A stretch of DNA of 64,000 nucleotides from assembly GCF_030013595.1 (NCBI RefSeq), contig NZ_CP122768.1, one strand, 5' to 3'. This document shows, in pieces, positions 12,524 through 38,524 of the stretch. The notes under the pieces were generated by a model that was not told where the DNA came from, did no database searches, and saw only the letters and a list, made by a program, of their open reading frames with translations. The stretch is from Escherichia coli (lineage in GTDB: Bacteria; Pseudomonadota; Gammaproteobacteria; Enterobacterales; Enterobacteriaceae). Each line of letters begins with the position of its first letter. Within the stretch, counting starts at the first letter, position 1. A program made the position numbers and the translations under genes.

Positions 12524-12549
12524 AACGTACTCCGGTTAAGTAATGCACA

Positions 12550-20050: not shown

Positions 20051-20535
20051 GAGTATTGGTATTCTCATTTCCCTTCTTTTAGAGCTGGCTTGTTAAATGC
20101 CAGCTTGCAAATTCATCGTTCCATCACCAGTACTATATTCAAGTGAAAATTGCTATTTTTCTTAAAGCATTAAGCATAAGCCTTATTTTATAGCGAATAT
20201 TCCTAAAGGCATTAATGGATGAAAAAGGGGTTTAATAAACTTCTTTTTTAGCAATTAGTGCTATTCTTTGTTAAATATGATGATGATAATCTTCTTATTG
20301 AAAGAAACAGTTTTCTTATTAAGCAACAATAACTCATGGTTCATTTTTAAATAAAATAAGAACTATGCAATTTTTAATCTATCGATTCGAAAGTATTAGC
20401 AAATTAGCCAAATTGACACCTTCCCACCTCCAACCAACACTCAATACAGACCTCTGACAACTTAATAAGTTTCATTTTTAACGTCTGATGACTCATCTCT
20501 TTCGTGGCTGTATTGTTTGTATATGGAGCGTTTAT

Positions 20536-23500
20536 ATGAATAGAATCTATCGCGTGATATGGAATTGCACCCTACAGGTATTTCAGGCCTGCTCGGAATT
20601 AACTCGCAGGGTAGGTAAAACATCAACGGTTAATTTACGTAAGTCCTCTGGACTGACAACGAAATTCAGTAGATTGACGCTGGGTGTTTTGCTGGCACTA
20701 AGCGGTTCAGCGTCAGGTGCGAGTCTGGAAGTTGATAATGGTCAGATTACCAATATTAATACTGATATTGCTTACGATGCCTACCTGGTTGGGTGGTATG
20801 GCACTGGAGTGCTTAATATTTTGGCTGGCGGTAATGCTTCCTTAACCACTATTACTACCAGCGTCATTGGCGCTAATGAGGGCTCGGAGGGCACCGTTAA
20901 TGTTTTGGGTGGCACCTGGCGATTGTATGATAGCGGAAATAATGCAAGGCCTTTAAATGTGGGTCAATCCGGAACGGGGACGCTGAATATTAAACAGAAG
21001 GGTCACGTTGACGGAGGATATTTAAGGATAGGTTCTTCGACAGGAGGCGTCGGGACGGTCAATGTTGAGGGAGAGGACTCGGTTCTGACGACCGAATTAT
21101 TCGAAATAGGGAGTTACGGTACAGGCTCATTAAATATTACGGATAAGGGTTACGTCACGAGTTCAATAGTCGCCATTGTAGGATATCAGGCGAACAGCAA
21201 TGGTAAGGTTGTCGTTGAAAAGGGTGGCGAGTGGCTAATAAAAAATAATGATTCCTCAATTGAATTTCAAATTGGCAATCAAGGGACGGGGGAAGCGATT
21301 ATTCGCGAGGGGGGGCTGATTACGGCTGAAAATACGATTATCGGAGGCAATGCCACCGGTATCGGAACCCTGAATGTGCAGGATCAAGACTCTGTCATCA
21401 CGGTACGCAGACTCTATAATGGATATTTCGGTAATGGCAAAGTCAATATTTCAAATAATGGACTGATTAATAACAAAGAATATTCATTGGTGGGCGTTCA
21501 GGACGGTTCCCACGGTGTCGTCAACGTGACTGATAAAGGGCATTGGAATTTCCTCGGAACGGGCGAAGCTTTCCGCTATATCTATATCGGTGATGCTGGC
21601 GATGGTGAACTTAATGTCTCGAGTGAAGGCAAAGTAGATTCGGGAATTATCACTGCGGGGATGAAAGAAACAGGCACAGGCAACATTACTGTTAAGGATA
21701 AGAACTCCGTTATCACTAATCTCGGAACTAATCTTGGTTATGACGGCCACGGCGAAATGAATATCAGTAATGATGGGCTTGTTGTCAGCAACGGAGGAAG
21801 TTCACTCGGTTATGGAGAAACCGGCGTTGGGAAGGTTAGCATCACCACGGGGGGGATATGGGAGGTCAATAAGAATGTCTATACCACCATTGGTGTTGCG
21901 GGCGTCGGAAACCTCAATATTAGCGATGGCGGTAAGTTTGTATCGCAAAATATTACATTTTTGGGCGATAAAGCAAGCGGTATCGGCACACTGAACCTGA
22001 TGGATGCGACATCATCGTTCGATACTGTGGGTATCAATGTCGGTAATTTTGGTAGCGGCATCGTAAATGTCAGTAATGGTGCCACCCTTAATTCAACGGG
22101 CTATGGATTTATCGGAGGAAATGCCTCCGGTAAGGGGATAGTTAATATTTCAACGGATAGTCTCTGGAATTTAAAAACGTCATCTACTAACGCCCAATTG
22201 CTACAGGTCGGTGTATTAGGCGCGGGTGAACTGAATATTACCACCGGAGGTATAGTTAAAGCGCGTGATACACAAATAGCTCTCAATGACAAAAGTAAGG
22301 GTGACGTGCGGGTGGATGGGCAGAACTCTCTTCTTGAAACATTCAATATGAACGTAGGGACGACAGGCACGGGTACGTTAACCCTGACGAATAACGGTAC
22401 GCTGAATGTCGAAGGTGGAGAGGTTTACTTAGGTGTTTTTGAGCCTGCTGTAGGAACGCTAAACATTGGTGCTGCTCACGGTGAGGCGGCGGTAGATGCC
22501 GGGTTTATCACCAATGCGACGAAAGTGGAGTTTGGTCCTGGCGAAGGCGTTTTTGTCTTTAATCATACCAATAACAGTGATGCCGGCTACCAGGTCGATA
22601 TGCTGATTACGGGTGACGATAAAGACGGAAAAGTGATGCATGATGCAGGCCATACGGTGTTCAATGCAGGGAATACTTATAGCGGTAAAACGCTGGTCAA
22701 TGACGGCCTCCTGACCATTGCGTCTCATACGGCAGATGGGGTAACGGGCATGGGTTCGAGTGAAGTAACCATTGCAAACCCCGGTACGCTCGACATTCTC
22801 GCATCAACGAACAGTGCAGGAGATTACACGCTGACCAATGCGCTCAAAGGCGATGGCTTGATGCGAGTGCAGCTGTCATCCTCCGACAAGATGTTTGGCT
22901 TTACCCATGCATCAGGGACTGAATTCGCCGGTGTTGCCCAACTGAAAGATAGTACCTTCACTCTGGAACGCGACAACACCGCTGCGCTTACTCACGCGAT
23001 GTTGCAGTCTGACATTGAAAATACCACATCGGTAAACGTGGGAGAGCAATCCATTGGTGGACTGGCCATGAATGGCGGTACGCTCATTTTCGATACGGAT
23101 ATTCCTGCTGCGACGCTCGCGGAGGGATATATCAGCGTCGATACGCTGGTTGTCGGCGCGGGTGACTACACCTGGAAAGGCCGTAACTATCAGGTAAACG
23201 GGACGGGCGACGTGCTTATCGACGTGCCTAAACCGTGGAATGATCCCATGGCGAATAACCCTCTGACGACGCTCAATTTGCTGGAACACGATGATAGTCA
23301 TGTCGGCGTTCAACTGGTGAAGGCGCAAACGGTTATTGGGTCGGGTGGCTCATTAACGTTACGTGATTTACAGGGCGACGAGGTGGAAGCGGACAAAACG
23401 TTACATATTGCACAAAACGGGACAGTGGTCGCCGAGGGTGATTATGGATTCCGCCTCACGACCGCACCAGGTGATGGTTTGTACGTTAACTATGGGCTGA

Positions 23501-25955
23501 AAGCGCTGAACATCCATGGTGGGCAAAAGCTGACGTTAGCCGAACATGGCGGAGCCTATGGCGCAACGGCCGATATGTCGGCAAAAATCGGTGGTGAAGG
23601 GGATCTGGCAATCAATACGGTACGACAGGTTTCGCTTTCCAACGGTCAGAACGACTATCAGGGGGCAACCTACGTTCAGATGGGGACATTACGTACCGAT
23701 GCGGATGGCGCGCTGGGCAACACCCGGGAACTGAACATCAGCAACGCGGCCATCGTCGATCTTAATGGATCGACCCAGACGGTAGAGACATTCACCGGGC
23801 TGATGGGTTCGACTGTTTTGTTCAAAGAAGGTTCGCTGACGGTGAATAAAGGTGGGATCAGTCAGGGCGAACTGACAGGTGGCGGAAACCTGAATGTTAC
23901 AGGGGGAACACTGGCTATCGAGGGGCTTAATGCACGCTACAATGCGTTAACCAGCATTAGCCCAAATGCGGAAGTCAGCCTCGATAATACGCAGGGGTTA
24001 GGCAGAGGAAATATTGCCAATGACGGTCTGTTAACGCTAAAAAATGTGACCGGCGAACTGCGTAATAGCATAAGCGGGAAGGGTATCGTGAGCGCAACCG
24101 CCAGGACAGACGTAGAGCTGGATGGCGATAATAGCCGCTTTGTGGGGCAATTCAACATTGATACAGGCAGCGCGCTCAGCGTCAACGAGCAGAAAAACCT
24201 GGGTGATGCTTCCGTTATCAATAATGGCCTGCTCACCATCTCCACTGAGCGTAGCTGGGCGATGACGCACAGTATCAGCGGTAGCGGTGATGTGACAAAA
24301 CTGGGTACCGGGAGCCTGACTCTTAACAACGATTCCGCGGCGTATCAGGGTACGACGGATATCGTGGGTGGTGAAATTGCTTTCGGTTCCGACTCTGCCA
24401 TTAATATGGCAAGTCAGCACATTAATATCCATAACAGCGGTGTGATGTCGGGAAATGTCACCACTGCAGGTGATGTGAACGTTATGCCTGGGGGACACTG
24501 CGTGTCGCCAAAACCACTATCGGCGGCAATCTGGAGAATGGTGGCACGGTTCAAATGAATAGCGAAGGGGGGAAACCGGGGAATGTGCTGACCGTTAACG
24601 GCAACTATACCGGAAACAATGGCCTGATGACGTTCAACGCGACGCTGGGCGGCGATAATTCGCCCACCGATAAGATGAACGTGAAAGGCGATACCCAAGG
24701 GAACACTCGCGTTCGGGTTGATAACATTGGCGGCGTCGGTGCACAAACGGTCAACGGTATTGAACTCATTGAGGTTGGCGGTAATTCTGCAGGTAACTTC
24801 GCGCTGACCACCGGAACTGTCGAAGCTGGGGCTTACGTCTACACGCTGGCTAAAGGGAAGGGGAATGACGAGAAAAACTGGTATCTGACCAGTAAATGGG
24901 ACGGCGTAACGCCAGCGGATACACCCGATCCCATCAATAATCCTCCTGTTGTGGATCCGGAAGGCCCATCAGTTTATCGCCCGGAGGCCGGAAGCTATAT
25001 CAGCAACATTGCCGCAGCCAACTCGCTGTTTAGCCATCGTTTACACGACCGTCTGGGTGAGCCGCAGTATACAGATTCACTGCATTCTCAGGGTTCGGCA
25101 AGCAGTATGTGGATGCGTCATGTCGGAGGGCACGAACGTTCAAGGGCCGGTGACGGTCAGCTAAATACTCAGGCTAACCGCTATGTATTGCAGCTAGGAG
25201 GCGATTTGGCGCAGTGGAGTAGCAACGCGCAGGATCGCTGGCATCTTGGCGTGATGGCAGGCTACGCCAATCAGCACAGTAATACTCAGAGTAATCGTGT
25301 GGGTTATAAATCGGATGGGCGCATCAGCGGTTACAGCGCAGGACTGTACGCGACCTGGTATCAGAACGATGCGAATAAGACCGGCGCTTATGTTGACAGC
25401 TGGGCGCTGTATAACTGGTTTGATAACAGCGTCAGTTCCGATAACCGTTCTGCTGTCGACTATGATTCTCGCGGTGTGACGGCCTCTGTTGAGGGTGGGT
25501 ATACCTTTGAAGCGGGAACATTTAGCGGCAGCGAAGGGACGCTGAATACCTGGTACGTCCAGCCACAGGCGCAAATCACCTGGATGGGTGTGAAAGATTC
25601 TGACCATACCCGGAAAGACGGAACACGCATTGAAACGGAAGGCGACGGAAACGTGCAAACGCGACTTGGGGTGAAAACCTACCTGAACAGTCATCACCAG
25701 CGTGACAATGGTAAACAGCGTGAGTTCCAGCCTTACATTGAAGCGAACTGGATCAACAACAGCAAAGTCTACGCCGTGAAGATGAATGGTCAAACCGTAA
25801 GCCGTGATGGTGCGCGTAGTCTCGGTGAAGTACGTACCGGGGTTGAGGCGAAAGTAAATCACAACCTTAGCCTGTGGGGGAATGTCGGTGTGCAACTAGG
25901 TGATAAAGGCTATAGCGATACTCAGGGCATGCTGGGTGTGAAATATAGCTGGTAA
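20536..25955 (+). pseudogene. yneO: AIDA-I-type autotransporter adhesin, frameshifted (about 1340-aa passenger reading frame + 466-aa C-terminal segment carrying the beta-barrel)
   Basis: Autotransporter extended signal peptide (MNRIYRVIWNCTLQVF...), repetitive Gly/Thr/Asn-rich passenger, C-terminal ...LGVKYSW barrel ending. The reading frame shifts at the G5 run 24490-24494; the continuous protein (…GGTLRVAKTTIGGNLENGGTVQMNSEGG…) needs a -1 shift. K-12 carries a pseudogene at this locus. Confidence 0.75.
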
Positions 25956-25964
25956 ACCGTATAA

Positions 25965-25997
25965 GCCGCATGTCGAAGATGCATGCGGCTTAATATT
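25965..25997 (+). terminator. Rho-independent terminator after the autotransporter gene
   Basis: GCCGCATG-N9-CATGCGGC hairpin followed by TTAATATT, 10 nt after the stop. Confidence 0.65.
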
Positions 25998-26030
25998 GCC
26001 GACTTCAAACGACTTTTAAATCCTCCTTTT

Positions 26031-26144
26031 TATCCGCGATCGCGGATATCACAGTGTTTATCCCGTAGAGCGGATAAGATGTGTTTCCAGATTGACTTTA
26101 TCCTCACTAAAGGATAAAACTGATAATATCCCCTTGAGCGGATA
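26031..26144. promoter_or_regulatory. hipBA promoter/operator region with four HipB operator palindromes
   Basis: Four TATCC-N8-GGATA sites at 26031-26048, 26059-26076, 26099-26116 and 26127-26144, matching the known HipB operator consensus. Confidence 0.85.
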
Positions 26145-26165
26145 AATTTGCTGTGGACGTATGAC

Positions 26166-26432
26166 ATGATGAGCTTTCAGAAGATCTATAGCCCAACGCA
26201 ATTAGCGAATGCAATGAAACTGGTTCGTCAGCAAAATGGCTGGACGCAGAGCGAGCTGGCGAAAAAAATTGGTATTAAGCAGGCGACGATTTCCAATTTC
26301 GAAAACAACCCTGACAATACCACGCTGACGACCTTTTTTAAGATTTTACAGTCGCTTGAACTCTCAATGACGCTATGCGACGCGAAAAATGCCTCGCCAG
26401 AATCAACAGAACAGCAAGATCTGGAGTGGTAA
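26166..26432 (+). CDS. hipB: Antitoxin/repressor HipB (88 aa, XRE-type HTH)
   Basis: MMSFQKIYSPTQLANAMKLVRQQNGWTQSELAKKIGIKQATISNFENNPDN...; the ORF track starts at an upstream TTG, the true start is the ATG at 26166. Confidence 0.9.
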   Translation: MMSFQKIYSPTQLANAMKLVRQQNGWTQSELAKKIGIKQATISNFENNPDNTTLTTFFKILQSLELSMTLCDAKNASPESTEQQDLEW

Positions 26433-27242
26433 TGCCTAAACTTGTCACTTGGATGAACAACCAGCGGGTAGGCGAGTTAACGAAGTTAGCCAACGGCGCG
26501 CACACCTTTAAGTATGCACCGGAGTGGTTAGCCAGCCGTTATGCCAGACCGTTGTCACTTTCGCTGCCATTGCAGAGGGGGAATATCACCTCTGATGCCG
26601 TATTTAACTTCTTCGATAACCTGTTACCCGATAGCCCGATTGTACGTGACCGGATCGTTAAACGTTATCATGCCAAATCCAGACAACCGTTTGATTTATT
26701 GTCAGAAATAGGGCGAGACAGCGTTGGTGCCGTGACGTTAATACCCGAAGACGAAACCGTAACGCATCCGATAATGGCATGGGAAAAGCTTACTGAAGCC
26801 AGACTTGAAGAAGTATTAACGGCTTATAAAGCAGATATCCCTCTGGGCATGATTAGAGAAGAAAATGACTTTTATTCAGGCTGGCGGCAGTTATCGACTC
26901 ACGCCATTTTACGACATCATTTCAGCATTTCCGGTATTGGGTGGCGCAGGAATACACATCAGCGATCTCAAACTGGCAATGGGGCTTAACGCATCCAAAG
27001 GCAAAAAAACGGCAATCGATAAAATTTATCCGCGACATTTTCTGGCGACAGCAAAGTTGCTGAAATTTCCGGAAGTGCAGATGCATGAAATCCTGAGTGA
27101 CTTTGCCAGAATGATTCCGGCAGCACTGGATAACGTGAAGACTTCATTACCGACAGATTTTCCGGAGAACGTGGTGACGGCAGTTGAAACCAATGTGTTG
27201 AGGTTGCACCGTCGGTTAAGCCGAGAATACGGTATTAAGTAA
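26432..27242 (+). pseudogene. hipA: hipA toxin kinase gene with an internal out-of-frame deletion (about 0.5 kb missing)
   Basis: N-terminal 150 residues (MPKLVTWMNNQRVGELTK...GMIREENDF) then the frame breaks near 26870-26878; the C-terminal 125 residues (FIQAGGSYRLTPFYDIISAF...LSREYGIK) continue in a different frame. Locus is 811 bp versus about 1323 bp for intact hipA. Confidence 0.8.
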
Positions 27243-27461
27243 GATATGGGGTTTGGCCGTTGTTAATGAGCAGGACAATCATGACCGCCAACGACTGGAT
27301 TCTCCCTTGGTTTATGTTGGTGCGCATAATGTATATTATGTTAAATAGCCTACGATGGTAAACAACTTCATAAATCTCCATTGCCTTTCACGAAATCAAC
27401 AGGTTAACGATTTCTAACATCCCTCCCATTTCTTGCGTTAGGTGTAGAGTACATTTACTTC

Positions 27462-28280
27462 ATGTCCGCATCAACAATGAGGTTATCTATGTACTCGCTC
27501 AACCAACTAGTTGCCATCAACCACAAACGGCAATGGATTCTGATGGACACGGAAACCTGCTTACCGTTGTTGTACCCACTCAGATATCACATCGATCATT
27601 TGGCTTTTCGTTCATTGTCCACGCAGTCTGCTTCGCTGCAGGCCGTTAAGTTCTTTTACGAATTTTGGTTGCAGAAACACGGCGTCACGTTTTGCTATAG
27701 CTTCTATGCTTCTGGCCACAACCCGTGCATTGCTATTGAGGAAATGTCGGCATTTTCTCACTATCTGGAGAATGGTCGCGTAAGCCAATCAAATTTATTG
27801 GCATTCACTCCAGTCTCCACTTCCCATAGTTTTATCAACGCAGCGCGATTTCGTGCAGTAGCGCAGTTTATTGCTTTTTTGATTAACACGTATGTATCGC
27901 CGGTATATCGGGATGATTCTCCCAAAGCATTATCACTCCAGGCTTCCCGGTTACATACTCGCCTGCGCTTTTGTCGTGACAGTTATCGAGCGTTAACACC
28001 GGGAAAGCATTCTAACCATCGTCATATCCATCAGGGGTTTCAGAGTATGAACCGTGAAATGGTGATCAGTCTGTACACGATTATTGCTCCCTGCTCTAGC
28101 CAAAAATATAACCCATTAAATCCCTTCCCCACCAGAAACACCCAGTTTCGCAACTTTTTGATTATTCGCCTGTTACTGAATTATGGATTGCGAATAGGTG
28201 AATTATTGCTGTTGGAATGCAATTCTATAAAATCAAATATAAAAAAGGATAAGTTTAGTTTGATTGTAACTACAACTTGA
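27462..28280 (+). CDS. Tyrosine recombinase, N-terminal part (Tn554 TnpA-like / GInt integrase 1); probably disrupted
   Basis: 272-aa ORF ending shortly after a box-I-like segment (FLIIRLLLNYGLRIGELLLLECNSI); the catalytic C-terminal motifs are in the next ORF. Confidence 0.55.
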   Translation: MSASTMRLSMYSLNQLVAINHKRQWILMDTETCLPLLYPLRYHIDHLAFRSLSTQSASLQAVKFFYEFWLQKHGVTFCYSFYASGHNPCIAIEEMSAFSHYLENGRVSQSNLLAFTPVSTSHSFINAARFRAVAQFIAFLINTYVSPVYRDDSPKALSLQASRLHTRLRFCRDSYRALTPGKHSNHRHIHQGFQSMNREMVISLYTIIAPCSSQKYNPLNPFPTRNTQFRNFLIIRLLLNYGLRIGELLLLECNSIKSNIKKDKFSLIVTTT

Positions 28281-28305
28281 ATTTAGTCACTCTGCACCGT
28301 TTTAT

Positions 28306-28947
28306 GTGTCCAGGTCGATTAACCAGGTCATCCTTAGTTTCAGTCCGCCAGATTATCAGGCCGCCGTAGCGCGTGGCGAAGCGGCTCTACCAATTATTAC
28401 GCCGACCGACTTGCGCCACAACGTGGGGCACTCACTGGCTATGCAAGGGGTCAGCGCCGAGGAAATCGCGCATATTCTGGGACATACCTCCCTTACTGTT
28501 GCCAAGTATTACATTTTGGCGACACCTGCGCTGGCACTGATTCGAGCCAAAGCGTTGGGTACCAATCCGGTATGGCAAAATATGGTAGCTATGATGTTGA
28601 CTGGTGAACTGACCTCTTCAACGAAATGGCAAGGCCAGCGCGTGGTCGGCATAATCGGTGATCAGTTGCATGATGGGATTGGTGGTTGCTCCAGAGATAA
28701 TGGCGACTGCCCGTTCAGTGAAGTACGCTGCTGCTACGGCTGCCTGTATTATCGCCCCTTTACTGATGGTGACCATCAGGCTGTGCTGGAGAGTGTAGTT
28801 AAAGAAGTCGATGAATTGATCTCCATTTCAGACAGTGTTGGTAACGCCCGCAATCCACTTATTTCCATCCATGAAACCACACAATTTGAAATTCAATCCG
28901 TGATTGCCCGTTGCCGCTTTCGTCAGGAAAAAGGCGGTGTGCGATGA
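28306..28947 (+). CDS. Tyrosine recombinase, C-terminal part (catalytic box II); continuation of the previous ORF
   Basis: Contains DLRHNVGHSLAMQGVSAEEIAHILGHTSLTVAKYY (R-H...H...Y catalytic signature). Separated from the upstream ORF by about 25 nt with a stop; the R-to-HxxR spacing looks shorter than usual. Confidence 0.55.
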   Translation: MSRSINQVILSFSPPDYQAAVARGEAALPIITPTDLRHNVGHSLAMQGVSAEEIAHILGHTSLTVAKYYILATPALALIRAKALGTNPVWQNMVAMMLTGELTSSTKWQGQRVVGIIGDQLHDGIGGCSRDNGDCPFSEVRCCYGCLYYRPFTDGDHQAVLESVVKEVDELISISDSVGNARNPLISIHETTQFEIQSVIARCRFRQEKGGVR

Positions 28948-31310
28948 AAAAATATTTTGCGCAGTTTCACGCCTTTATCACCGAGCAGCAAAGCTGGTTT
29001 GAACAGCATCTGGCGACAGACTTCGAGCAGTCATGGGATGATCCTGTCTGGGTCTGCGGCAGCAATGGTAGTGGCTGGTTACGTGGTAATGGCAAAAATA
29101 AATTACGCTTTGATGAAATCAGCCGTACCAAAGGTATTGAGGGGCGCCATGCAGTGGCAGAAGACTATGCCCGGTTTATGAAAGCCCTGCTGGTACTAGT
29201 GTATCGGAGGCGAAATCGTAGCATATCCCCAGCGGTGGCTGTGGCAACGCTGATGATTTTGAAGCGCTGGTACCACTCGCTATTTGAGATGACCGGGCAA
29301 ACTCACCCAGTGTATCTAACCACCGGGGTAATTCAACGGTCAATGGATAGCCTCAGCGCAGCTTCGTCTCCAGGGGATCCCAATACCGCCAATTACAAAG
29401 GACGCTGTGTCAGTCTGCAAAAAATGGTTAATCACCAGTCATTCACGCTGGTGACACTGCAATATGTGTCTGATGCACAATATACCAATCAAACCAACCT
29501 GACCCGCAAAGCCCGGGAAACCATGGCTCTGAAACAGCAGGACAAGCTGACAGATACCACTACCGATGGTGAAGAGGCGTTGATTACCATTCGCGGTTTT
29601 CTGAACATCGTCGAATTAATCCAGCGGGTGGAAAGTGATGCTGAGAAAATTGCGTTAAATTGCCTGTTGTTATTGGTTATCACCGGCTTTCGCTCCATTG
29701 AAGCGTTTAATCTCAGACAGGATGCGCTGTTTAAACGCCAGATTGATGATCCGGCAATCCGCAAGCGGTTTCAGGACAAGGGATTACCCGATTATTTCCT
29801 TGGTATCCGTTATATTGGTGTCAAAGGTGCTGGGGAGCGAACGCATTGGGTAGAACCGCTGGCTGTACCGCTGGTCGAGAGTATATTCAGTTCCGTTAAA
29901 ATATTGACCGCACCAAAACGCAGTCATCTGACCTATCTACGGGAGAAATCTTTTACTGATTACCTGCCACAGGCCATCAGCGCCCTACCCGGTGAACAAG
30001 TTGAACTGGATGATGTGGTGACGTACATCACACAAACCGCCTCAAGTTTTCGTGGCCGGGCAGGACAACGAGACAAAACATCCAAAGCCCTCAACAAACG
30101 AGGTGTGCTGCCCGTTCTAGAAATGCCAGGGCCGAAAAACAGCAAATCTATCTATTATTCCAAGACTGACCTTAATCATTACATCAAGACCGAATTTGGC
30201 CTGACGGATGCCAACGAACCCTGTACGCACGCCTGGATGGAAAATGGCAAACGTTACGAAGTTAACTACGAAGACCTGTTATTTCTACATGAGAAGGGTT
30301 CGCTGGCATTAAAGCGCACACTGGCTTTGCTGGCTATACCGATACCATTCACTAACACACTTATGAATAAATTTTTAGGCAATGTTGAGCCTGATGGATC
30401 AGTATTCAGCAAATATCAATTACTGGAAGAGAATGGTACCCCCACCCGGATGCGTACCCACATTCCCCGGCACAACATCAATACCTTTCTTGCTATTGCG
30501 GATATCTCTGACCACTTACAGGCAATGTTGATGGGGCGAGTGGACATCACGCAGAATCAGCACTATCAACATCTGGCGCTTGCAGAACGGCGAAAAGCAG
30601 CCTCGTTGGTGCCCTTGCAGCCGATATCGACAGCACTAACTGCCGCGCCCTCTTCGTCCTCCATTGCTACGCCACTGGAAATCGTCAAACGGACCGGCCA
30701 ACTGGCGGTCACGAAACACATGACTTTGGACAATACCATCAAAGCCAACCTGCATACTTTTGACGATCGGGATGATGTAGCCAGGTTTGTCGAGGCGTCA
30801 TTTGCTGACGGCCTCTTTGAAGATGTTGCTGCCGCCTTTGAAGAAATCCGCGACGCAGAAGGACCAGAGCAAGCCTCTGCCATGGTGGCAAGACATGCCG
30901 TGATGTATCCGCTGAAATTTGGCTCCTGTATGCGGGAAGTTAACCTCTGGGGATGTCCTTATCGACTGAAATGCCAGAGTGCTGCCTTTTGTGAACATTT
31001 CACGCTGACAGGCCGGATAGATGAGCTACCCAATCTGATTGCCAAAAAACAGGCGTTACAGCAAGCACATTCGAAGTTGACCCAACTTACACAACATCAG
31101 CCTGACTACCAGACCAGACTGGCCGACATCGAACGACGGTTACAGCAACTCGAGGCAATACAAGCACAATGGCAGCGTCGTGCCAAGACTCAACAACTGG
31201 TTGCTGCGGAGAGTGTGTTGTCTGGTGGAGTAATCACCGAGGGCAAAGTCCGTACACTGGCCCAGCTTTTTGCACTTGAATACCAACAATTGATGCAGGA
31301 GAACGACTGA
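28944..31310 (+). CDS. Large tyrosine recombinase (Tn554 TnpB-like / GInt integrase 2), about 788 aa
   Basis: Box I-like LLLLVITGFRSIEAFNLRQD and box II-like THIPRHNINTFLAIADISDHLQAMLMGRVDITQNQHYQHL; ATG at 28944 overlaps the upstream stop (ATGA), suggesting translational coupling. Confidence 0.65.
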   Translation: MKKYFAQFHAFITEQQSWFEQHLATDFEQSWDDPVWVCGSNGSGWLRGNGKNKLRFDEISRTKGIEGRHAVAEDYARFMKALLVLVYRRRNRSISPAVAVATLMILKRWYHSLFEMTGQTHPVYLTTGVIQRSMDSLSAASSPGDPNTANYKGRCVSLQKMVNHQSFTLVTLQYVSDAQYTNQTNLTRKARETMALKQQDKLTDTTTDGEEALITIRGFLNIVELIQRVESDAEKIALNCLLLLVITGFRSIEAFNLRQDALFKRQIDDPAIRKRFQDKGLPDYFLGIRYIGVKGAGERTHWVEPLAVPLVESIFSSVKILTAPKRSHLTYLREKSFTDYLPQAISALPGEQVELDDVVTYITQTASSFRGRAGQRDKTSKALNKRGVLPVLEMPGPKNSKSIYYSKTDLNHYIKTEFGLTDANEPCTHAWMENGKRYEVNYEDLLFLHEKGSLALKRTLALLAIPIPFTNTLMNKFLGNVEPDGSVFSKYQLLEENGTPTRMRTHIPRHNINTFLAIADISDHLQAMLMGRVDITQNQHYQHLALAERRKAASLVPLQPISTALTAAPSSSSIATPLEIVKRTGQLAVTKHMTLDNTIKANLHTFDDRDDVARFVEASFADGLFEDVAAAFEEIRDAEGPEQASAMVARHAVMYPLKFGSCMREVNLWGCPYRLKCQSAAFCEHFTLTGRIDELPNLIAKKQALQQAHSKLTQLTQHQPDYQTRLADIERRLQQLEAIQAQWQRRAKTQQLVAAESVLSGGVITEGKVRTLAQLFALEYQQLMQEND

Positions 31311-31744
31311 TGCGCGGCAAGGAACTGGACACACTGATCGAGCACGAATTACAACTGATGCTGGTTGAAGGCTTTGACAAGTCCCCTATTTCCGCCAAGG
31401 CCCTGCATATTCGGCTCAAGGCAAAAGGTATCGTTAACGGTGGTTTAAGTACGCTGAGCAGCCTTGAGCGAAAACGCCTAATTGCTGCCTATGTTGATCA
31501 GCAACTTGGCCCATTGAATCTACGCCCAAAAGAAAAACAGCAATACGTCAACCGCAAAACCCGTCAGGCCTTGCTGGCCAGAAACCAGCAGTTGCAGGCG
31601 GAAGTCAGTGAGCTGCGAGACCAACTGGCGCAGAATACCCTGTCGTTGATAGAAATTGTCAAAGCGGTAAAAATCAATACAGTTATTCCGGTGGAAAGTC
31701 TGTTGGCTAAACATGTAATTCGGGAGTTACACAAGTCGTTATAA
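31310..31744 (+). CDS. Small coiled-coil protein (Tn554 TnpC-like / GInt accessory protein)
   Basis: 144-aa ORF whose ATG overlaps the upstream stop (TGATG); predicted coiled-coil (QQLQAEVSELRDQLAQNTLSL). Third gene of a recombinase-recombinase-small protein module. Confidence 0.5.
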   Translation: MRGKELDTLIEHELQLMLVEGFDKSPISAKALHIRLKAKGIVNGGLSTLSSLERKRLIAAYVDQQLGPLNLRPKEKQQYVNRKTRQALLARNQQLQAEVSELRDQLAQNTLSLIEIVKAVKINTVIPVESLLAKHVIRELHKSL

Positions 31745-31908
31745 TGCTGACATAGGAATATTTCGCCGACAGTTTCCCGGTTGTCGGCGAAATGCTGATT
31801 GTAATTTTTCGGCAAAGGGCATGGACGATTTCTTTTCGTTATTCTGCATATTGCTTACCTTCCCAAATTTCTCCAACCGTTAGTTGGAGAAATTAGATGG
31901 GTCGTAAA

Positions 31909-32103
31909 TCATGAATAAACGCCTTGATCTATTCGAAAAATGAGAATTGCAACTTTCAACGCCCCCTCTTCTGAGTCCATTATCTCAGAGGACGCTTTCC
32001 ACTGTAATGCTCTGTTTGGTTCATTGCACCAGTTTAATGCTGCACTTTCGTTACCTTCAAAAAGATCAATAGCCTTTTGTATAACATCATTTTTTGTCAG
32101 CAT
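31909..32103 (-). CDS. DUF2384-like (Xre/MbcA/ParS antitoxin toxin-binding domain) fragment, likely the frameshifted C-terminus of the upstream XRE protein
   Basis: ...AALNWCNEPNRALQWKASSEIMDSEEGALKVAILIFRIDQGVYS resembles the DUF2384 C-terminal signature; overlaps the XRE ORF by 17 nt across an A6 tract (T6 at 32090-32095 on the + strand). Confidence 0.45.
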   Translation of the reverse strand: MLTKNDVIQKAIDLFEGNESAALNWCNEPNRALQWKASSEIMDSEEGALKVAILIFRIDQGVYS

Positions 32104-32419
32104 GTTTTACACCTGAAGACGTTTTGAGTGCTTCGATAAGGCTACTTCGCTCTTCCTCTGTCATCCGAGATATGAGTAATGCAAGTTCTGCTGTTGTCTG
32201 ATCATCACAAAAAAGGTAGTTCAACGGCACGTTTAACTCTGCTGCCATCCGTCGAAGCGTATCAATATCGGGGACATGGCGTCCTTTCTCATAATGATTC
32301 ATACGACTGCTAGCCGATGCAGGATCAAAGCCAACAAGGAGACCCAGAGAGCGCTGTGATAAACCAGCCCTGCATCTCGCTTCCTTAAGTCGTTCTGGTA
32401 TCGGATTTTTTTCAGACAC
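32087..32419 (-). CDS. XRE-family HTH DNA-binding protein (110 aa)
   Basis: HTH signature LKEARCRAGLSQRSLGLLVGFDPASASSRMNHYEKGRHVPDIDTLRRMAAELNV. Confidence 0.7.
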   Translation of the reverse strand: MSEKNPIPERLKEARCRAGLSQRSLGLLVGFDPASASSRMNHYEKGRHVPDIDTLRRMAAELNVPLNYLFCDDQTTAELALLISRMTEEERSSLIEALKTSSGVKHADKK

Positions 32420-32503
32420 TGATTCATCTTCATTGGCCTCGAATGCTTAGATTGTCTAAGTATCTGCCATTGTTGTATACTTAGCAATCCTAAGTTAATA
32501 GCC

Positions 32504-33076
32504 TTGTTTTGTCATATGAATAGCCGAGTAACCAACCCTGAGTCGTACATATTTTCTGCAATCATCTTAATTGGCAAAGATAACTTCACCAGTAACGAAG
32601 TAGCAAAAATTCTTATCGAGCGATTTTCACTTCCGAAAAATTATTTAAAGGCAAAAGCTTTTGCTTATAACCAAATTCAATCCCTGGTTAGAAAAGGATT
32701 ATTAAACAAAGTAAGAAAAACAGGCGTGTATCAATATTTATACTCAGTCACAGCAGAATTCAATGTCGCAATAGAGTGCGTGAAATTAATTGAGGCAACC
32801 CCAAAGTCTTCCTGTCAACTTGTTTCAAGTGCTACCAACCATGAACACAGAAATGTAAATATCCAAATAAAGTCTCTTATTGAAAAATACAGCAGTGAAT
32901 TGGCGAAAGTATCAGGAGCAAAGGAGATTTATGAGGAATTGATAGTTGCTGTGCCGAGCAGGGAAAATGAATTCAGGAAGCTTTCTCTTGAACAAGAGAA
33001 AAAACACATCAAGATAAATGAAAAAATAAATACATTAATTGGAATTATTAATCAATCTCTTGCAGTAAGGCAATGA
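32504..33076 (+). CDS. Hypothetical protein (190 aa), AT-rich, divergent from the XRE gene
   Basis: Open frame only; lysine-rich with a possible N-terminal winged-helix-like segment and C-terminal coiled coil. No family recognised. Confidence 0.5.
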   Translation: MFCHMNSRVTNPESYIFSAIILIGKDNFTSNEVAKILIERFSLPKNYLKAKAFAYNQIQSLVRKGLLNKVRKTGVYQYLYSVTAEFNVAIECVKLIEATPKSSCQLVSSATNHEHRNVNIQIKSLIEKYSSELAKVSGAKEIYEELIVAVPSRENEFRKLSLEQEKKHIKINEKINTLIGIINQSLAVRQ

Positions 33077-33891
33077 ATTTTAGCAAGTATTTGAAGCTAA
33101 ATGGAGTCATGAAAAAGAGAGGGCAAAGCCGAACTCCGCCCTCTCCCGTCAAGCACTGATATATCTCATTAAAATGAGATTAACAGCGCGCACTCCTATA
33201 TGCTAGTCGTATATAAATATAATGTCAGCCAGTCCCGGATGCAACTCTTTAATGAAGTTCAGTACTCTCTTTTTTTAGTTATCGAAATGATAGTTGGTAC
33301 AAGGGAACACACGAAGAGGAAAATTGCGATGACTTTGACGCAGAGCATGTTGAGTCTATTATTGCGACCCTCGAAGCTCTGGATGCGTTAGATTTACGCC
33401 ACGGAAGATGGACTGTAAGTATCCCTCCAATAGTGCGACTCACTTACCCAGATTGTAAGTTCAAACGGTCGAAGGCACTAGATTCTGATAAGAATTTGAG
33501 GCGCATGAGTACAGGCATTCGATTGTCAGCTTCTGGGTAGTTGTGGGAATTCTGCTCAAAGTGCCGCTGGCCAAAACATATTGGGCGCTGGTCTGTGGCG
33601 GCAAAATGGTGTCACGTAAAAGATACAGATGTTCCAGTCTATTTTTGCCCAATAACGTGCCCCGGGTTCAGTTTTTTTGCTCGGGACTAAAACGCTTATC
33701 CAGATCAGCCGCCAGCTGTTCAATACTCTTCGTTGAGCCTTTATAAATATACCAATCAAACTGTTAAAAACTCGTTCAAATTCGACCAAATATTATTACT
33801 GGCTGATATTAGTTCGGTTAGGCAAAGCGCAACAAACAACTAAGAAGTGCGCCTCAAAAAATTAATTGTAAGGCGCCCCCCTAAAACACAT

Positions 33892-36219
33892 TTATTCTGT
33901 TATATTTCTTGGCAACATAGAAAAAGATGCTTGAGACAATCCTGCGCGCTTGAATTTATACCGTATATATGTTGACACTTCCATCTCATGGTTTGACAAC
34001 AAAATCTGACGATCTGAAAGCTCTACCCGTAACAAATCACTCAATGAAGCAATGTTAATCTCATCCATTGACTGTACTGGATCATCAATCAGTATAAATG
34101 GATTAAGCGCATATACCCTATTCAATGTTAGGAAAAATGCCAAACCTAATGATGCGATTTGCCCACTACTCATAGACAGGATTGCATCATGATCAGACTT
34201 CAGCGCAGTATTGAATTTGAGTATATCTCCTTTACCGCTCACTATAAACAAACCTAACCCACGCTGATAATTCTGTATGAGTCTTCCACTATATATATGG
34301 AATAACAGCTCTATATCACCAATAGTCTTTTTCGCATACTGTTTCGCAGTGTCGTCCAATTGCCGCCTAAGATTAACAATTTTTGCTTTTATTTTTTTGC
34401 CAGCTTCAATCCTAGAACTGAGCTTATCAAGCTCCGCTACTTTGGACTTGTACTCTTCGCTTTTGAATTTAGAATGAGCGGCTCTGAGATAGGATTCTTT
34501 ATTTTCAAAATCTGAAACACTAAGTGAGGTTATATCTGATGCGTTCAAGAAAGCCATCTCTAAGCTAGATGACCAGTCTAAAGGGAGCACATCCTTTTCT
34601 GGTTTTTTAGCTGTAGCAATAATCCCTTTTGCTTCATTAAACCGTAACAGCAGAGCTGCATCATCAGCCGTAAAACTAAGATCTTTTGATACGCCATAAT
34701 TTACCAACTGCAAAGCCACTTCACTTATGATTGAGAACTTAGATTCTGCTGCTGTGAGAGCCTTAAAAAGCACACTATCGAAATCTTTTGCAACTAGGTC
34801 ACGCTGCTGTGTGAATGCTGTTATCTGTAAATTTAGTAAGTCCTGTATTGACCTTACTGTCTCCTCCAACTTCTGGGCAGAAGCATCTATTTCAGATCGA
34901 ATTCTTTCCGCATTATTTACAGCGGCTTCCTCTAACGCAGCGTAAGTCGCCCATGATAACCCACAGAATGGACAACCGGAAATTTCCAAATCTTCACATT
35001 CTTGGTGTCGCCGCAGCAACTCTGCATGAGCATTTAGTAAATTTACAAGCTTTGCGTTCTTAGCTGCACTATCAGATTTAATTAGATCCCGTGCCTCAAT
35101 GAGACTATTTACACCAACCAAATCAGCAGCGTTCTTAAGACCGTTTAGGTCTACTTCATTTATCTCTGAAGCTGGCTTTCTGAATATCAAAAGATCATGA
35201 TCCAGCCCAACTAGCGTTGACTCCTTTACTTTCAGACCTTCATATCCAGCTACTTCAGAACCCAACTGAAGAGCCAACTTTATATCGACCTCTCTTTTTA
35301 AAAACGCATCAATATTACTATTAGCCTTTCTCGTCAGAACTTCATCAAAGTTCTGATATATTCTAAATATATTCCGTAATTCACGTATCAGAGTTTCAAT
35401 ATCTGTATCATTTACAGCCGATAGAGGCTGTTCAACATCCCAACCAGGTGACGGCGTCGCGGTACTTAACCGCTTGAAGTCAACGGAATTCTCGGCATCT
35501 TGAAACTGACCACTAAGCTGTTTAATTTTTTCATTCAACTCAGCCTGGAGGTCAGTATGCACTTTCCCCGTATAAGATTCCGTAATAATACTTTCTAACT
35601 CGGAGCAATATGATATCTGTCTCGTCAATTTATCGGTATTAATAAGATGCTCAATGCCTTTTTTTCTTTCAGTGGCATCCGTCGAGTACAGGTATCTATT
35701 CTGCCCTTGCTCAAGATAGTTCAATAAAGAGAAATTTTTTAAGAAGTTCTCTCCTAGAATACTCTCTAGTGCTTTAGAATCAAGACTCTCTCCAAACTTA
35801 TCGGAGTCTATACTGCTTATTTCGTAAAGCTTAAAAATAGAGAAGTTATCAGGTGCATTATTATCCGGGTTCGATAAATCCGCTATGGTAGCAACACGAG
35901 CTAGGAAAATTGACTCTCCTGAATCTTGATTTATGAGCTCAGCTCTAATAGCGATGTCGCCCTCTTTATTTCTATTCCAGTATATGTTTTCTTCAAATTG
36001 TTTTTTGCGCGAACGTTTTGCAACTGTTGCATCATTTGTATTGATAATTCTTTGTATAACGCCAGTAAACAAAAGCTCCAACGCATCAAATATGCTAGTT
36101 TTTCCAAAACCATTGGGGCCATCCAAGGTAATCATGGAGGCAGATCGAAAATCAATAGATGTATTTTCAAATGGCTTGAAATTTTCAATCTTGAGGCTGG
36201 ATATTTTCCATTTCTTCAT
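33892..36219 (-). CDS. Rad50/SbcC/SMC-like ABC ATPase with coiled-coil insert and CxxC zinc-hook-like motif (LmuB-like), 775 aa
   Basis: N-terminal Walker A (IENFKPFENTSIDF...LDGPNGFGKTSIFDALELLF), central CPFCG motif in a predicted coiled coil, C-terminal signature/Walker B/H-loop (SSGQIASLG...FILIDDPVQSMD...LLSNHE). Confidence 0.65.
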   Translation of the reverse strand: MKKWKISSLKIENFKPFENTSIDFRSASMITLDGPNGFGKTSIFDALELLFTGVIQRIINTNDATVAKRSRKKQFEENIYWNRNKEGDIAIRAELINQDSGESIFLARVATIADLSNPDNNAPDNFSIFKLYEISSIDSDKFGESLDSKALESILGENFLKNFSLLNYLEQGQNRYLYSTDATERKKGIEHLINTDKLTRQISYCSELESIITESYTGKVHTDLQAELNEKIKQLSGQFQDAENSVDFKRLSTATPSPGWDVEQPLSAVNDTDIETLIRELRNIFRIYQNFDEVLTRKANSNIDAFLKREVDIKLALQLGSEVAGYEGLKVKESTLVGLDHDLLIFRKPASEINEVDLNGLKNAADLVGVNSLIEARDLIKSDSAAKNAKLVNLLNAHAELLRRHQECEDLEISGCPFCGLSWATYAALEEAAVNNAERIRSEIDASAQKLEETVRSIQDLLNLQITAFTQQRDLVAKDFDSVLFKALTAAESKFSIISEVALQLVNYGVSKDLSFTADDAALLLRFNEAKGIIATAKKPEKDVLPLDWSSSLEMAFLNASDITSLSVSDFENKESYLRAAHSKFKSEEYKSKVAELDKLSSRIEAGKKIKAKIVNLRRQLDDTAKQYAKKTIGDIELLFHIYSGRLIQNYQRGLGLFIVSGKGDILKFNTALKSDHDAILSMSSGQIASLGLAFFLTLNRVYALNPFILIDDPVQSMDEINIASLSDLLRVELSDRQILLSNHEMEVSTYIRYKFKRAGLSQASFSMLPRNITE

Positions 36220-36940
36220 GAATCAGAGTCTCGATTAGTTTGTCTGCTTCAATCCCAGATGCAGAAGCATTAAAGATTTTGAGATGAAGACCGGTCAATT
36301 TTTTCTCGGCGAGTGCTTCCTTTACATAAATATCAAGCGGCTTTAGTGAGCTTTCCTTAACAGGAACCTTTACAAATGGAAGCTTTATAAAAATTCTCGC
36401 CGCGACGCTATATAATGTAGGCGATAGTGGTTGATCTCGATATTCTGCAAACATCCTATCATCGACAACAATCGCTGAAACGCTTTCGAAGTTGTGCCCT
36501 TCTAACAACCTAAGCTCTTCCTCGCTGTAATAAAGAAAATATTTTTTAAAATAATATGGATTCTCTTCAATTCCAAACACCTTACTCTCAATTCCATTAA
36601 AATCAACTCGGTGCCTTAATTTATGCAAAATAATCAGATCGGTATTTTTATCGAAAGCAGGATCAGATTTGAATGTTTCAGGAGCATACAGTAACACTAA
36701 TTTATTCAGCACCTGCGGTGATGGTATATTTTCACACTCAACCACAGCGAGGAATCGCTTCCTATCTCCACTATCCTGACTAAAATAAGTCAAAGACTTA
36801 TAATCAACACCTTCAAGACCAGCTAAAGTTTCTCCTGCCGAATACTCTATGGTGACGTCATCTGCTTTAGAATAGTCGCCTGTATTAAACAAAGTAAACT
36901 CATGTTTCAAGGCAGCCTGTAGAACAATATCTTTAATCAT
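36185..36940 (-). CDS. Middle gene of the three-gene operon (251 aa), unknown function, possibly LmuC-like
   Basis: Start overlaps the upstream stop by 8 nt and its 3' end overlaps the downstream ATPase start, indicating translational coupling. No recognisable motif. Confidence 0.5.
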   Translation of the reverse strand: MIKDIVLQAALKHEFTLFNTGDYSKADDVTIEYSAGETLAGLEGVDYKSLTYFSQDSGDRKRFLAVVECENIPSPQVLNKLVLLYAPETFKSDPAFDKNTDLIILHKLRHRVDFNGIESKVFGIEENPYYFKKYFLYYSEEELRLLEGHNFESVSAIVVDDRMFAEYRDQPLSPTLYSVAARIFIKLPFVKVPVKESSLKPLDIYVKEALAEKKLTGLHLKIFNASASGIEADKLIETLIHEEMENIQPQD

Positions 36941-38195: not shown

Positions 38196-38524
38196 ATTTA
38201 GAGACAGAGTCAGAAGTAACCTTCTAACTCAGTAGAATATGATCTTAATTTCTGTATCCGATGTTTATATTTTTTGTTGAACGCGCCCAGCGGCGTTATG
38301 AAAACTTCCTTGATTGTCATTTTTATGCATTCTCTTGATCGATAGGAATTTAAATCCCAAAAAGATTAAAAAAACACCCAAAAACGGATGTTTATTCGAC
38401 ACTGCCTGCGTGCCATGAGTGCACCGCCATCAATTAAATGGATCTTATCGAGTGATACTGTATATCACTGATGGTTTTTTACTCCATTCCCCTGAAAATG
38501 GACGCAACTTCCCCGATGCGGCTC

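What the first reader, a model, noticed from the sequence alone, without database searches (positions are those of the whole stretch)
26031..26144. Four intact HipB operators upstream of a hipA-dead locus
All four TATCC-N8-GGATA palindromes are perfectly preserved even though the toxin is inactivated. HipB may have been retained as a stand-alone autoregulated repressor, or the hipA lesion is recent.
Basis: partly seen in the sequence, partly recalled or inferred. Interest (0 to 1): 0.3.

Follow-up and report, generated by a model that had tools for sequence, protein, structure and literature searches.

The report
hipBA operators beside freshly deleted hipA
This is the well-known four-site HipB operator region of the E. 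coli hipBA toxin-antitoxin locus; it is intact because the deletion that killed the hipA toxin gene is very recent and private to this strain, so its preservation says nothing about selection.

Summary
Four exact TATCC-N8-GGATA palindromes lie at 26031-26144, 39 to 135 nt upstream of an intact 88-aa hipB. They are the orthologues of the K-12 operators O1-O4.

hipA is dead. A 512-bp frameshifting deletion (junction 26872|26873) removes codons 148-318, including the P-loop, Ser150 and Asp309.

The lesion is private and young.
- The junction is absent from 5,426 complete E. coli genomes, JGI metagenomes and GTDB representative genomes.
- Relatives with intact hipA are 100% identical across the locus.
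- At the observed divergence (25 SNPs in 47 kb), neutral evolution leaves all 40 half-site bases unchanged with P = 0.98.

Operator preservation therefore carries no evidence that HipB is kept as a stand-alone repressor. That idea is neither supported nor refuted.

The surrounding pattern is more informative. The same haplotype carries at least two other hipA knock-outs: a 710-bp deletion and a 1-bp frameshift. Other lineages carry further ones, including a 627-bp deletion in 77 complete genomes. Every allele examined that retains hipB also retains all four operators. Alleles that lose hipB lose the hipA 5' end with it.

This is the known toxin-first decay of a chromosomal toxin-antitoxin locus. 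The finding is ordinary, with a modest hint that hipA is lost repeatedly.

The parts
26031..26048 (.). HipB operator O1, TATCCGCGATCGCGGATA
   Evidence: Exact palindrome match. Identical to K-12 O1. Invariant in 9 of 9 diverse E. coli loci.
26059..26076 (.). HipB operator O2, TATCCCGTAGAGCGGATA
   Evidence: Exact match. Identical to K-12 O2. Half-sites are invariant; one spacer position is polymorphic (G/C) among strains.
26099..26116 (.). HipB operator O3, TATCCTCACTAAAGGATA
   Evidence: Exact match. Identical to K-12 O3. The O2-O3 gap is 22 bp here against 21 bp in K-12; the 22-bp form is the majority allele, in 8 of 9 loci.
26127..26144 (.). HipB operator O4, TATCCCCTTGAGCGGATA
   Evidence: Exact match. 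One spacer difference from K-12 (G for A). It ends 21 nt before the hipB ATG.
26092..26127 (+). Promoter-like hexamers flanking O3: TTGACT (26092-26097) and GATAAT (26122-26127; TATAAT in K-12). The assignment is uncertain.
   Evidence: Read directly from the sequence. The spacing is 24 nt, so the consensus scan calls no sigma-70 promoter here or in K-12. That the operators lie in the hipBA promoter region rests on the literature (PMC3920265).
26166..26432 (+). hipB, an intact 88-aa Xre-type HTH antitoxin and repressor. Its stop codon overlaps the hipA ATG by 1 nt.
   Evidence: ORF and translation. Pfam HTH_3, E = 4.9e-15. Full-length match to PDB HipB chains 2WIU_B and 3DNV, E = 6e-54. Identical to the HipB of hipA-intact relatives. 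Differs from K-12 HipB only by N85D in the C-terminal tail, the majority allele.
26432..26989 (+). hipA 5' remnant ORF: native residues 1-147 (26432-26872), then 38 out-of-frame residues and a stop codon.
   Evidence: Translation. Pfam Couple_hipA (HipA N-terminal domain), E = 4.7e-28. Residues 1-147 are identical to K-12 HipA in PDB 2WIU_A; residues 8-103 also match HipS(Lp) 7VKB_B, E = 4e-7.
26871..26874 (+). Deletion junction. hipA nt 442-953 (512 bp, codons 148-318 plus 2 nt) are missing, with 2 bp (TT) of microhomology.
   Evidence: Base-by-base comparison with the intact allele of strain HCP5S3_I2. The deleted peptide contains the P-loop, Ser150, Lys181, Asp291 and Asp309.
26873..27242 (+). 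hipA 3' remnant (native codons 319-440 plus stop), now out of frame with the 5' part. Includes a stand-alone 125-aa ORF at 26865-27242.
   Evidence: 100% identical to nt 954-1323 of the intact allele. Weak Pfam HipA_C hit below the curated cut-off.

Best explanation
The interval is the canonical promoter-operator region of the chromosomal E. coli hipBA type II toxin-antitoxin operon.

HipB dimers bind the four TATCC-N8-GGATA sites cooperatively and repress transcription of hipB and whatever follows it. In this strain hipA has just suffered a private 512-bp frameshifting deletion that removes the kinase core. The locus now makes HipB and at most a 185-aa HipA N-terminal fragment.

The operators and hipB are intact for two ordinary reasons.
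1. Essentially no evolutionary time has passed since the lesion.
2. In a toxin-antitoxin locus the toxin must be lost first, or together with the antitoxin. A lesion in hipB or its promoter while hipA is active is counter-selected.

What is shown: the identity and orthology of the operators, the integrity of hipB, the nature of the hipA lesion, and its privacy and recency.

What is inferred: HipB is still made and still autoregulates. Repression is probably looser and free HipB turnover by Lon faster than in a hipA+ cell, because HipA acts as co-repressor and stabilises HipB.
For: Operators and hipB:
- Operators are exact and orthologous to K-12 O1-O4.
- hipB is intact and matches solved HipB structures over its full length.

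The hipA lesion:
- hipA nt 442-953 are deleted, with a frameshift and loss of Ser150, the P-loop and Asp309. The roles of these residues are given in PMC6581861.

Recency and privacy:
- The junction 50-mer is absent from 5,426 complete genomes. The same method finds the 627-bp allele in 77 genomes, which serves as a positive control.
- It is absent from JGI metagenomes and GTDB representative genomes, and the product is not on record.
- The closest complete genome has intact hipA, is 100% identical over 25900-27400 apart from the deletion, and differs by only 25 SNPs in 47 kb.
- Neutral P(no change in the 40 half-site bases) = 0.98.

Order of loss:
- Ten more loci of the same haplotype all carry identical operators and HipB. 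They hold three hipA states: intact, a 710-bp deletion and a delta-G frameshift.
- All sampled hipA-dead, hipB-intact alleles in other lineages keep four exact operators.
- The sampled alleles that lose hipB also lose the hipA 5' end: O157:H7 and GPEC1222.

Literature:
- HipB binds the four operators cooperatively and HipA is a co-repressor (PMC3920265).
- HipB alone binds O1O2 with Kd 0.6 nM. Free HipB is degraded by Lon, and DNA or HipA stabilises it. Deleting hipA gives no phenotype (PMC3376134).
- Silencing hipB is toxic (PMC6242692).
- Chromosomal toxin-antitoxin loci decay through inactive toxin mutants (PMC7167474).
Against: No experiment here shows that HipB is expressed or binds in this strain.

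Promoter hexamers could not be assigned by consensus scanning.

This haplotype differs from K-12 at four points: a 1-bp longer O2-O3 spacer, GATAAT instead of TATAAT, one O4 spacer base, and absence of a 13-bp segment that holds an IHF-consensus-like site in K-12. Quantitative behaviour may therefore differ from the K-12 model.

A single unvalidated assembly supports the deletion.
Confidence: 0.85

Rival explanations
1. HipB, possibly together with the HipA N-terminal fragment, is kept by selection as a stand-alone autoregulated transcription factor, or as an anti-addiction antitoxin against incoming HipA-family toxins. On this view the operators are conserved because the hipB circuit is still useful.
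For: hipB and all four operators are intact in every hipA-dead, hipB-retaining allele examined: the window, the 710-bp deletion, delta-G, the ST405-like 627-bp deletion, MJ-T, PE164 with IS3, and Ecol_448. The 627-bp allele persists in 77 complete genomes. [quoted passage not shown] Orphan antitoxins are known in E. coli (PMC7232551).
Against: There is no statistical power. Every such allele sits on flanks 100% identical to hipA-intact relatives, so neutrality predicts the same picture. The order constraint (toxin first) also predicts it. Whole-locus losses do occur: O157:H7, GPEC1222, and about 440 genomes with no hipB match. HipB is therefore dispensable in many lineages.
Confidence: 0.1
2. 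The 512-bp deletion is an assembly or sequencing artefact, and the locus in the real organism is an ordinary intact hipBA.
For: The junction and the product are found in no other public sequence searched. The window also shows two single-base homopolymer length differences from its closest relative (G6 to G5 at about 24490, T8 to T7 at about 33270). Such differences can be sequencing errors.
Against: No repeat flanks the deletion that could collapse an assembly; there are only 2 bp of microhomology. Comparable genuine hipA deletions exist in independent assemblies of the same lineage and of others. The G-run frameshift product (466 aa) is also seen in other assemblies, so the homopolymer differences need not be errors.
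Confidence: 0.05

Closest known systems
E. coli K-12 hipBA promoter-operator region (O1-O4; Black et al. 1994; Schumacher et al. 2009 and 2015; PDB 3DNV, 4YG7)
   Same: Same chromosomal locus between the ECSE_1600/yneO autotransporter gene and hipB. Four TATCC-N8-GGATA sites have identical half-sites. The 413 bp covering operators and hipB are 97.3% identical to K-12. HipB differs only by N85D.
   Different: The O2-O3 gap is 22 bp rather than 21. There is one base change in the O4 spacer. GATAAT replaces TATAAT between O3 and O4. A 13-bp segment upstream of O1 is missing, which in K-12 holds an IHF-like consensus. hipA downstream is deleted.
[quoted passage not shown] 2009; reviewed by Fraikin et al. 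2020, PMC7167474)
   Same: The toxin gene is inactivated while the antitoxin and its regulatory DNA remain. There are several independent inactivating alleles within one species.
   Different: This is hipBA rather than ccd. The window's allele is a new, private 512-bp deletion. Antitoxin function after toxin loss was not tested here.
Split-kinase Hip systems (HipBST; H. influenzae HipB-HipA(N)-HipA(C))
   Same: The remnant ORF encodes the HipA N-terminal subdomain that corresponds to HipS; residues 8-103 match 7VKB_B with E = 4e-7. It lies directly after hipB.
   Different: There is no partner kinase. The 3' remnant lacks the P-loop and Asp309 and is out of frame. The arrangement results from a recent deletion, not from an evolved three-gene operon.

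Membership tests
hipBA promoter-operator array (O1-O4) | Four TATCC-N8-GGATA palindromes clustered upstream of hipB | tested here: met
   Four exact sites at 26031-26144; 0.07 exact matches are expected by chance in the 64-kb window.
hipBA promoter-operator array (O1-O4) | Positional orthology with the characterised K-12 sites, whose spacing is 10/21/10 bp | tested here: met
   Colinear alignment with K-12. Spacing is 10/22/10 bp; the extra base is shared by 8 of 9 natural loci. The K-12 spacing is from PMC4150777.
hipBA promoter-operator array (O1-O4) | The cognate repressor HipB (88-aa Xre-type HTH) is encoded immediately downstream | tested here: met
   ORF 26166-26432. Pfam HTH_3. Full-length match to PDB HipB chains.
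hipBA promoter-operator array (O1-O4) | HipB binds the sites and represses transcription | not testable with these tools
   Needs EMSA, footprinting or a reporter assay. Known for the K-12 sequence (PMC3376134).
Functional type II HipBA toxin-antitoxin module | Intact HipA Ser/Thr kinase (P-loop, Ser150, catalytic Asp309, Asp332 in one reading frame) | tested here: not met
   Codons 148-318 are deleted and the remainder is frameshifted.
Functional type II HipBA toxin-antitoxin module | Intact HipB antitoxin, translationally overlapping hipA | tested here: met
   The hipB stop codon and the hipA ATG overlap (TAATG) at 26430-26434.
Solo (orphan) antitoxin maintained by selection | Antitoxin intact while the toxin is dead | tested here: met
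Solo (orphan) antitoxin maintained by selection | Evidence of purifying selection on the antitoxin and operators after toxin loss (an old lesion with conservation beyond the neutral expectation) | tested here: inconclusive
   The lesion is private and recent. Neutral P(no change) is 0.81-0.98. The other hipA-dead alleles are equally young relative to their intact relatives.
HipBST-like split kinase system | Separate HipS-like N-terminal protein plus an intact HipT-like kinase ORF | tested here: not met
   An N-terminal fragment is present, but no ORF with the kinase motifs remains.

The most novel reading that the evidence does not exclude
hipA is being knocked out repeatedly under positive selection in this near-clonal lineage, and in others such as the ST405-like clone. 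Meanwhile hipB, the operators and the HipS-equivalent N-terminal part of HipA are kept as a working repressor or anti-toxin unit. The window's private deletion would then be one of several parallel adaptive losses, not drift.

The indel counts suggest but do not prove this. Across about 20 kb and 12 sequences, three of six indel events, and both large deletions, fall in the 1.3-kb hipA. The binomial P is about 0.005, or about 0.04 after discounting the window's own event, which is why this lineage was examined.

A caveat: the 710-bp deletion (nt 432-1141) fully contains the 512-bp one. It could be a second step on a window-like allele, which would reduce the count of independent events.
Probability: 0.2. 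Interest if true: 0.45.

Novelty: already known. Interest (0 to 1): 0.2.

Why it matters
For the finding as stated, little follows. It is the textbook hipBA operator array next to a fresh toxin-gene deletion, and its conservation is uninformative.

The wider pattern may interest people working on persistence and toxin-antitoxin evolution. Natural E. coli lineages repeatedly lose the HipA kinase core through independent deletions, a frameshift and an IS insertion, while hipB and its operators stay. In one widespread clone, 77 complete genomes carry such an allele. This offers natural hipA-null/hipB+ strains with isogenic hipA+ relatives. These could be used to test whether HipA costs fitness in the wild and whether HipB has a role of its own.

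Tried and rejected
- **Promoter scan.** Consensus scanning of 25900-26300 and of the K-12 counterpart found no sigma-70 promoter. TTGACT and G/TATAAT are 23-24 nt apart, so the promoter hexamers are left unassigned.
- **Two further exact sites.** The TATCC-N8-GGATA sites at 38989 and 52433 were considered as HipB regulon sites. Both are intragenic: one inside an ORF I read as an IS91-type transposase (recognised by eye, not run against a family library), the other inside the fimbrial usher gene. The second is also present in K-12 near ydeT. I treated them as chance or hitch-hiking sites and did not pursue them.
- **Descent from the ST405-like allele.** I considered whether the window's deletion derives from the 627-bp allele, which shares the right endpoint. 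This is rejected: the window retains nt 327-441, which that allele lacks, and the flanking haplotypes differ.
- **Chi-like octamer.** GCTGGCGG lies 8 nt to the right of the shared endpoint and was considered as a cause. Its orientation does not fit RecBCD behaviour. This rests on my own reasoning and was not tested.
- **Source genome.** Searches for the source genome or the junction in complete genomes, metagenomes, GTDB representative genomes and the gene-product index found nothing.
- **Papers not held.** Black et al. 1994 (PMC205607) and Schumacher et al. 2009 (PMC2764309) are not in the library. Promoter and IHF details rest on secondary citations.
- **Joint counts.** Population counts of hipB-present, hipA-core-absent genomes could not be joined per genome with the tools. 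Only the marginal counts are available: 4,800 genomes with operators plus hipB, and 4,866 with the hipA core, out of 5,426.

Full report
**What is there**

The window is E. coli chromosome. The gene order is lsr operon, ECSE_1600-family autotransporter, hipB, hipA, then an island that starts with tyrosine-recombinase genes.

Four exact TATCC-N8-GGATA palindromes lie in the intergenic region after the autotransporter gene:
- 26031-26048
- 26059-26076
- 26099-26116
- 26127-26144

These start 135, 107, 67 and 39 nt upstream of the hipB ATG at 26166. Dinucleotide-preserving shuffles of the window give 0.07 exact matches on average. Six are found, four of them in this 114-bp cluster.

Alignment with K-12 (strain JM83) shows that they are O1-O4 of the hipBA promoter. 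All 40 half-site bases are identical, and there is one substitution in the O4 spacer. The published consensus is TATCCN8GGATA, with cooperative HipB binding to four sites in the hipBA promoter region and HipA as co-repressor (PMC3376134; PMC3920265).

**State of the genes**

hipB (26166-26432) encodes an intact 88-aa HTH_3 protein. It matches the crystallised HipB over its full length (2WIU_B and 3DNV, E = 6e-54). It differs from K-12 only by N85D in the disordered tail, and D85 is the majority allele among nine diverse loci.

hipA (26432-27242) is 811 nt instead of 1323. Base-by-base comparison with an otherwise identical intact allele places a 512-bp deletion of nt 442-953, with 2 bp (TT) of microhomology at 26872|26873. 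It removes codons 148-318 and shifts the frame. Lost are the P-loop with the autophosphorylated Ser150, and also Lys181, Asp291 and Asp309 (roles of the P-loop and Ser150 per PMC6581861).

What remains:
- An ORF for HipA residues 1-147 plus 38 foreign residues. It scores as Pfam Couple_hipA. Residues 1-147 are identical to K-12 HipA, and residues 8-103 resemble HipS.
- An out-of-frame 3' remnant.

The kinase is dead.

**How old is the lesion?**

- A 50-mer centred on the junction was designed so that neither half alone can seed megablast. It has no match in 5,426 complete E. coli genomes. The same design applied to another hipA deletion finds 77 genomes, so the negative result is meaningful.
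- The junction 40-mer is absent from the JGI metagenome collection and from the GTDB representative genomes.
- The 185-aa product is not on record among 153 billion gene positions.
- The closest complete genomes are pig isolates HCP5S3_I2 and LCP30S3_I5. They carry intact hipA, are 100% identical to the window over 25900-27400 apart from the deletion, and differ by 25 SNPs in 47 kb overall.

At that divergence, the neutral probability of seeing no change is:
- 0.98 for the 40 half-site bases
- 0.94 for the 114-bp array
- 0.81 for operators plus hipB

It cannot be read as evidence that HipB is being kept for a function of its own.

**The lineage**

Looking up the exact HipB protein and the neighbouring integrase in public assemblies gave ten further loci of the same haplotype. 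Their 1.8-kb operator-hipB-hipA stretch is 100% identical to the window's intact relatives except for the hipA lesions. The hipA states are:
- Intact hipA, in seven of the ten loci with 10-kb flanks fetched. The exact 440-aa product is listed in 166 blocks.
- A 710-bp frameshifting deletion of nt 432-1141, in GCA_030346565.1, GCA_030347955.1 and Logan runs. Nine contigs carry its 152-aa product.
- Loss of one G in a GGG run near nt 350. Twenty-three contigs carry its 128-aa product.

SNP typing over 20 kb groups the window with the 710-bp, delta-G and some intact loci in one clade. This clade is distinct from that of HCP5S3_I2. All ten loci keep the four operators at identical positions and an identical HipB.

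Among real indel events in this 20-kb alignment, three of six, and both large deletions, fall in the 1.3-kb hipA. That is an excess: binomial P is about 0.005, or about 0.04 after discounting the window's own event. I regard this as suggestive only. In addition, the 710-bp deletion fully contains the 512-bp one, so it could be a second step on a window-like allele rather than an independent event.

**Other lineages**

hipA-only lesions with intact hipB and four exact operators recur elsewhere:
- A 627-bp in-frame deletion (nt 327-953) in 77 complete genomes. Strain names suggest ST405/O102:H6.
- A 492-bp in-frame deletion in strain MJ-T.
- An IS3 insertion in PE164.
- A larger deletion in Ecol_448.

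Where hipB is lost, the hipA 5' end goes with it:
- O157:H7 carries a deletion from the middle of O2 through hipB to about hipA codon 88.
- GPEC1222 keeps the operators but lacks hipB and most of hipA.

In the sampled loci I saw no case of dead hipB with intact hipA. This asymmetry is what toxin-antitoxin logic predicts. Silencing hipB is toxic because Lon removes HipB and frees HipA (PMC6242692), whereas deleting hipA has no phenotype (PMC3376134). Decay of chromosomal toxin-antitoxin loci through inactive toxin mutants is established (PMC7167474, citing Mine et al. 2009).

**Likely mechanism now**

*Shown:* the sequence elements for HipB autoregulation are all present and identical to those of hipA+ relatives.

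*Inferred from the K-12 literature:*
- HipB dimers still bind O1-O4 and repress the operon. HipB alone binds O1O2 with Kd 0.6 nM.
- Without full-length HipA as co-repressor and stabiliser, free HipB should turn over faster through Lon, and the promoter should be somewhat less repressed.

Whether the 185-aa N-terminal fragment is stable or does anything is unknown.

**Differences from K-12 worth recording**

- The O2-O3 gap is 22 bp rather than 21. The 22-bp form is the majority natural form.
- GATAAT replaces TATAAT between O3 and O4.
- A 13-bp segment upstream of O1 is absent. In K-12 it holds a one-mismatch match to the IHF consensus.

No sigma-70 promoter is called by consensus in either strain.

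**Verdict**

'HipB retained as a stand-alone repressor' is untested and gains no support from conservation.

The feature itself is already known, and the window's deletion is a new private allele of a known kind of decay. Interest is low. The modest extra is that hipA loss with hipB retention is recurrent in natural E. coli, including three lesions on one near-identical haplotype.

Noticed in passing
window 26872|26873; hipA nt 953|954 in L001 and L008: The window's 512-bp deletion and the unrelated 627-bp deletion of the ST405-like clone (77 complete genomes) share the same right endpoint, hipA nt 953|954, within the 2-bp ambiguity. The left endpoints of the window's deletion and of the 710-bp deletion in the same lineage are only 10 bp apart (nt 441 and 431). 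This may point to a deletion hot spot. No repeat or hairpin explains it.
   Followed up: partly
L018, L021, L022 (710-bp deletion); L023, L027 (delta-G near nt 350); window 26432-27242: There are three different hipA knock-outs on one otherwise identical 1.8-kb haplotype. Three of six indel events in a 20-kb alignment of 12 sequences fall in hipA, which may reflect parallel selection for loss of the kinase.
   Followed up: partly
window 20488-25955 (frameshift near 24485-24490): The ECSE_1600-family autotransporter gene upstream of the operators is split into 1356-aa and 466-aa ORFs by a G6-to-G5 change relative to HCP5S3_I2, where it is a single 1806-aa gene. The same 466-aa product is called in other assemblies (L020, L039). 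This could be a recurrent or phase-variable homopolymer change rather than an error.
   Followed up: partly
window 25995-26030 compared with L002 3110-3140: Relative to K-12, this haplotype lacks 13 bp just upstream of O1. In K-12 that segment contains CATCAACGCCTTA, a one-mismatch match to the IHF consensus WATCAANNNNTTR. No such match exists in the window's intergenic region. IHF is reported to bind upstream of the hipBA promoter and to raise its activity.
   Followed up: partly
window 26077-26127: The O2-O3 spacer is 22 bp against 21 bp in K-12, and the hexamer between O3 and O4 is GATAAT against TATAAT. The 22-bp/GATAAT form is the majority among nine diverse E. coli loci, so the K-12 reference is the atypical allele.
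   Followed up: yes
window 38989-39006 and 52433-52450: There are two further exact TATCC-N8-GGATA matches in the window. One lies inside an ORF I read as an IS91-type transposase (by eye, not checked against a family library), within a window-specific 1.8-kb insertion. The other lies inside the fimbrial usher gene and is also present near K-12 ydeT. Both are intragenic and are probably not HipB targets.
   Followed up: partly
window 27462-38300: Directly downstream of hipA lies an island that is absent from K-12. It holds three tyrosine-recombinase-like genes, an Xre/MbcA-type antitoxin pair, and an AAA-ATPase plus 'ABC-three component system' gene set (MComp1 and CTD1 domains). This looks like a defence island using the hipA flank as its insertion site. 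In other lineages a SIR2-family gene sits at the same position.
   Followed up: no
L010 1630-1680 (E. coli O157:H7 RV06): In O157:H7 the locus carries a deletion that starts in the middle of O2 and ends near hipA codon 88. O1, half of O2 and a 5'-truncated hipA remain, with no hipB and no promoter.
   Followed up: yes
window 11914-13073: The window has intact lsrF and lsrB. Its closest complete relative, HCP5S3_I2, lacks 1160 bp here, which fuses or truncates these genes.
   Followed up: no
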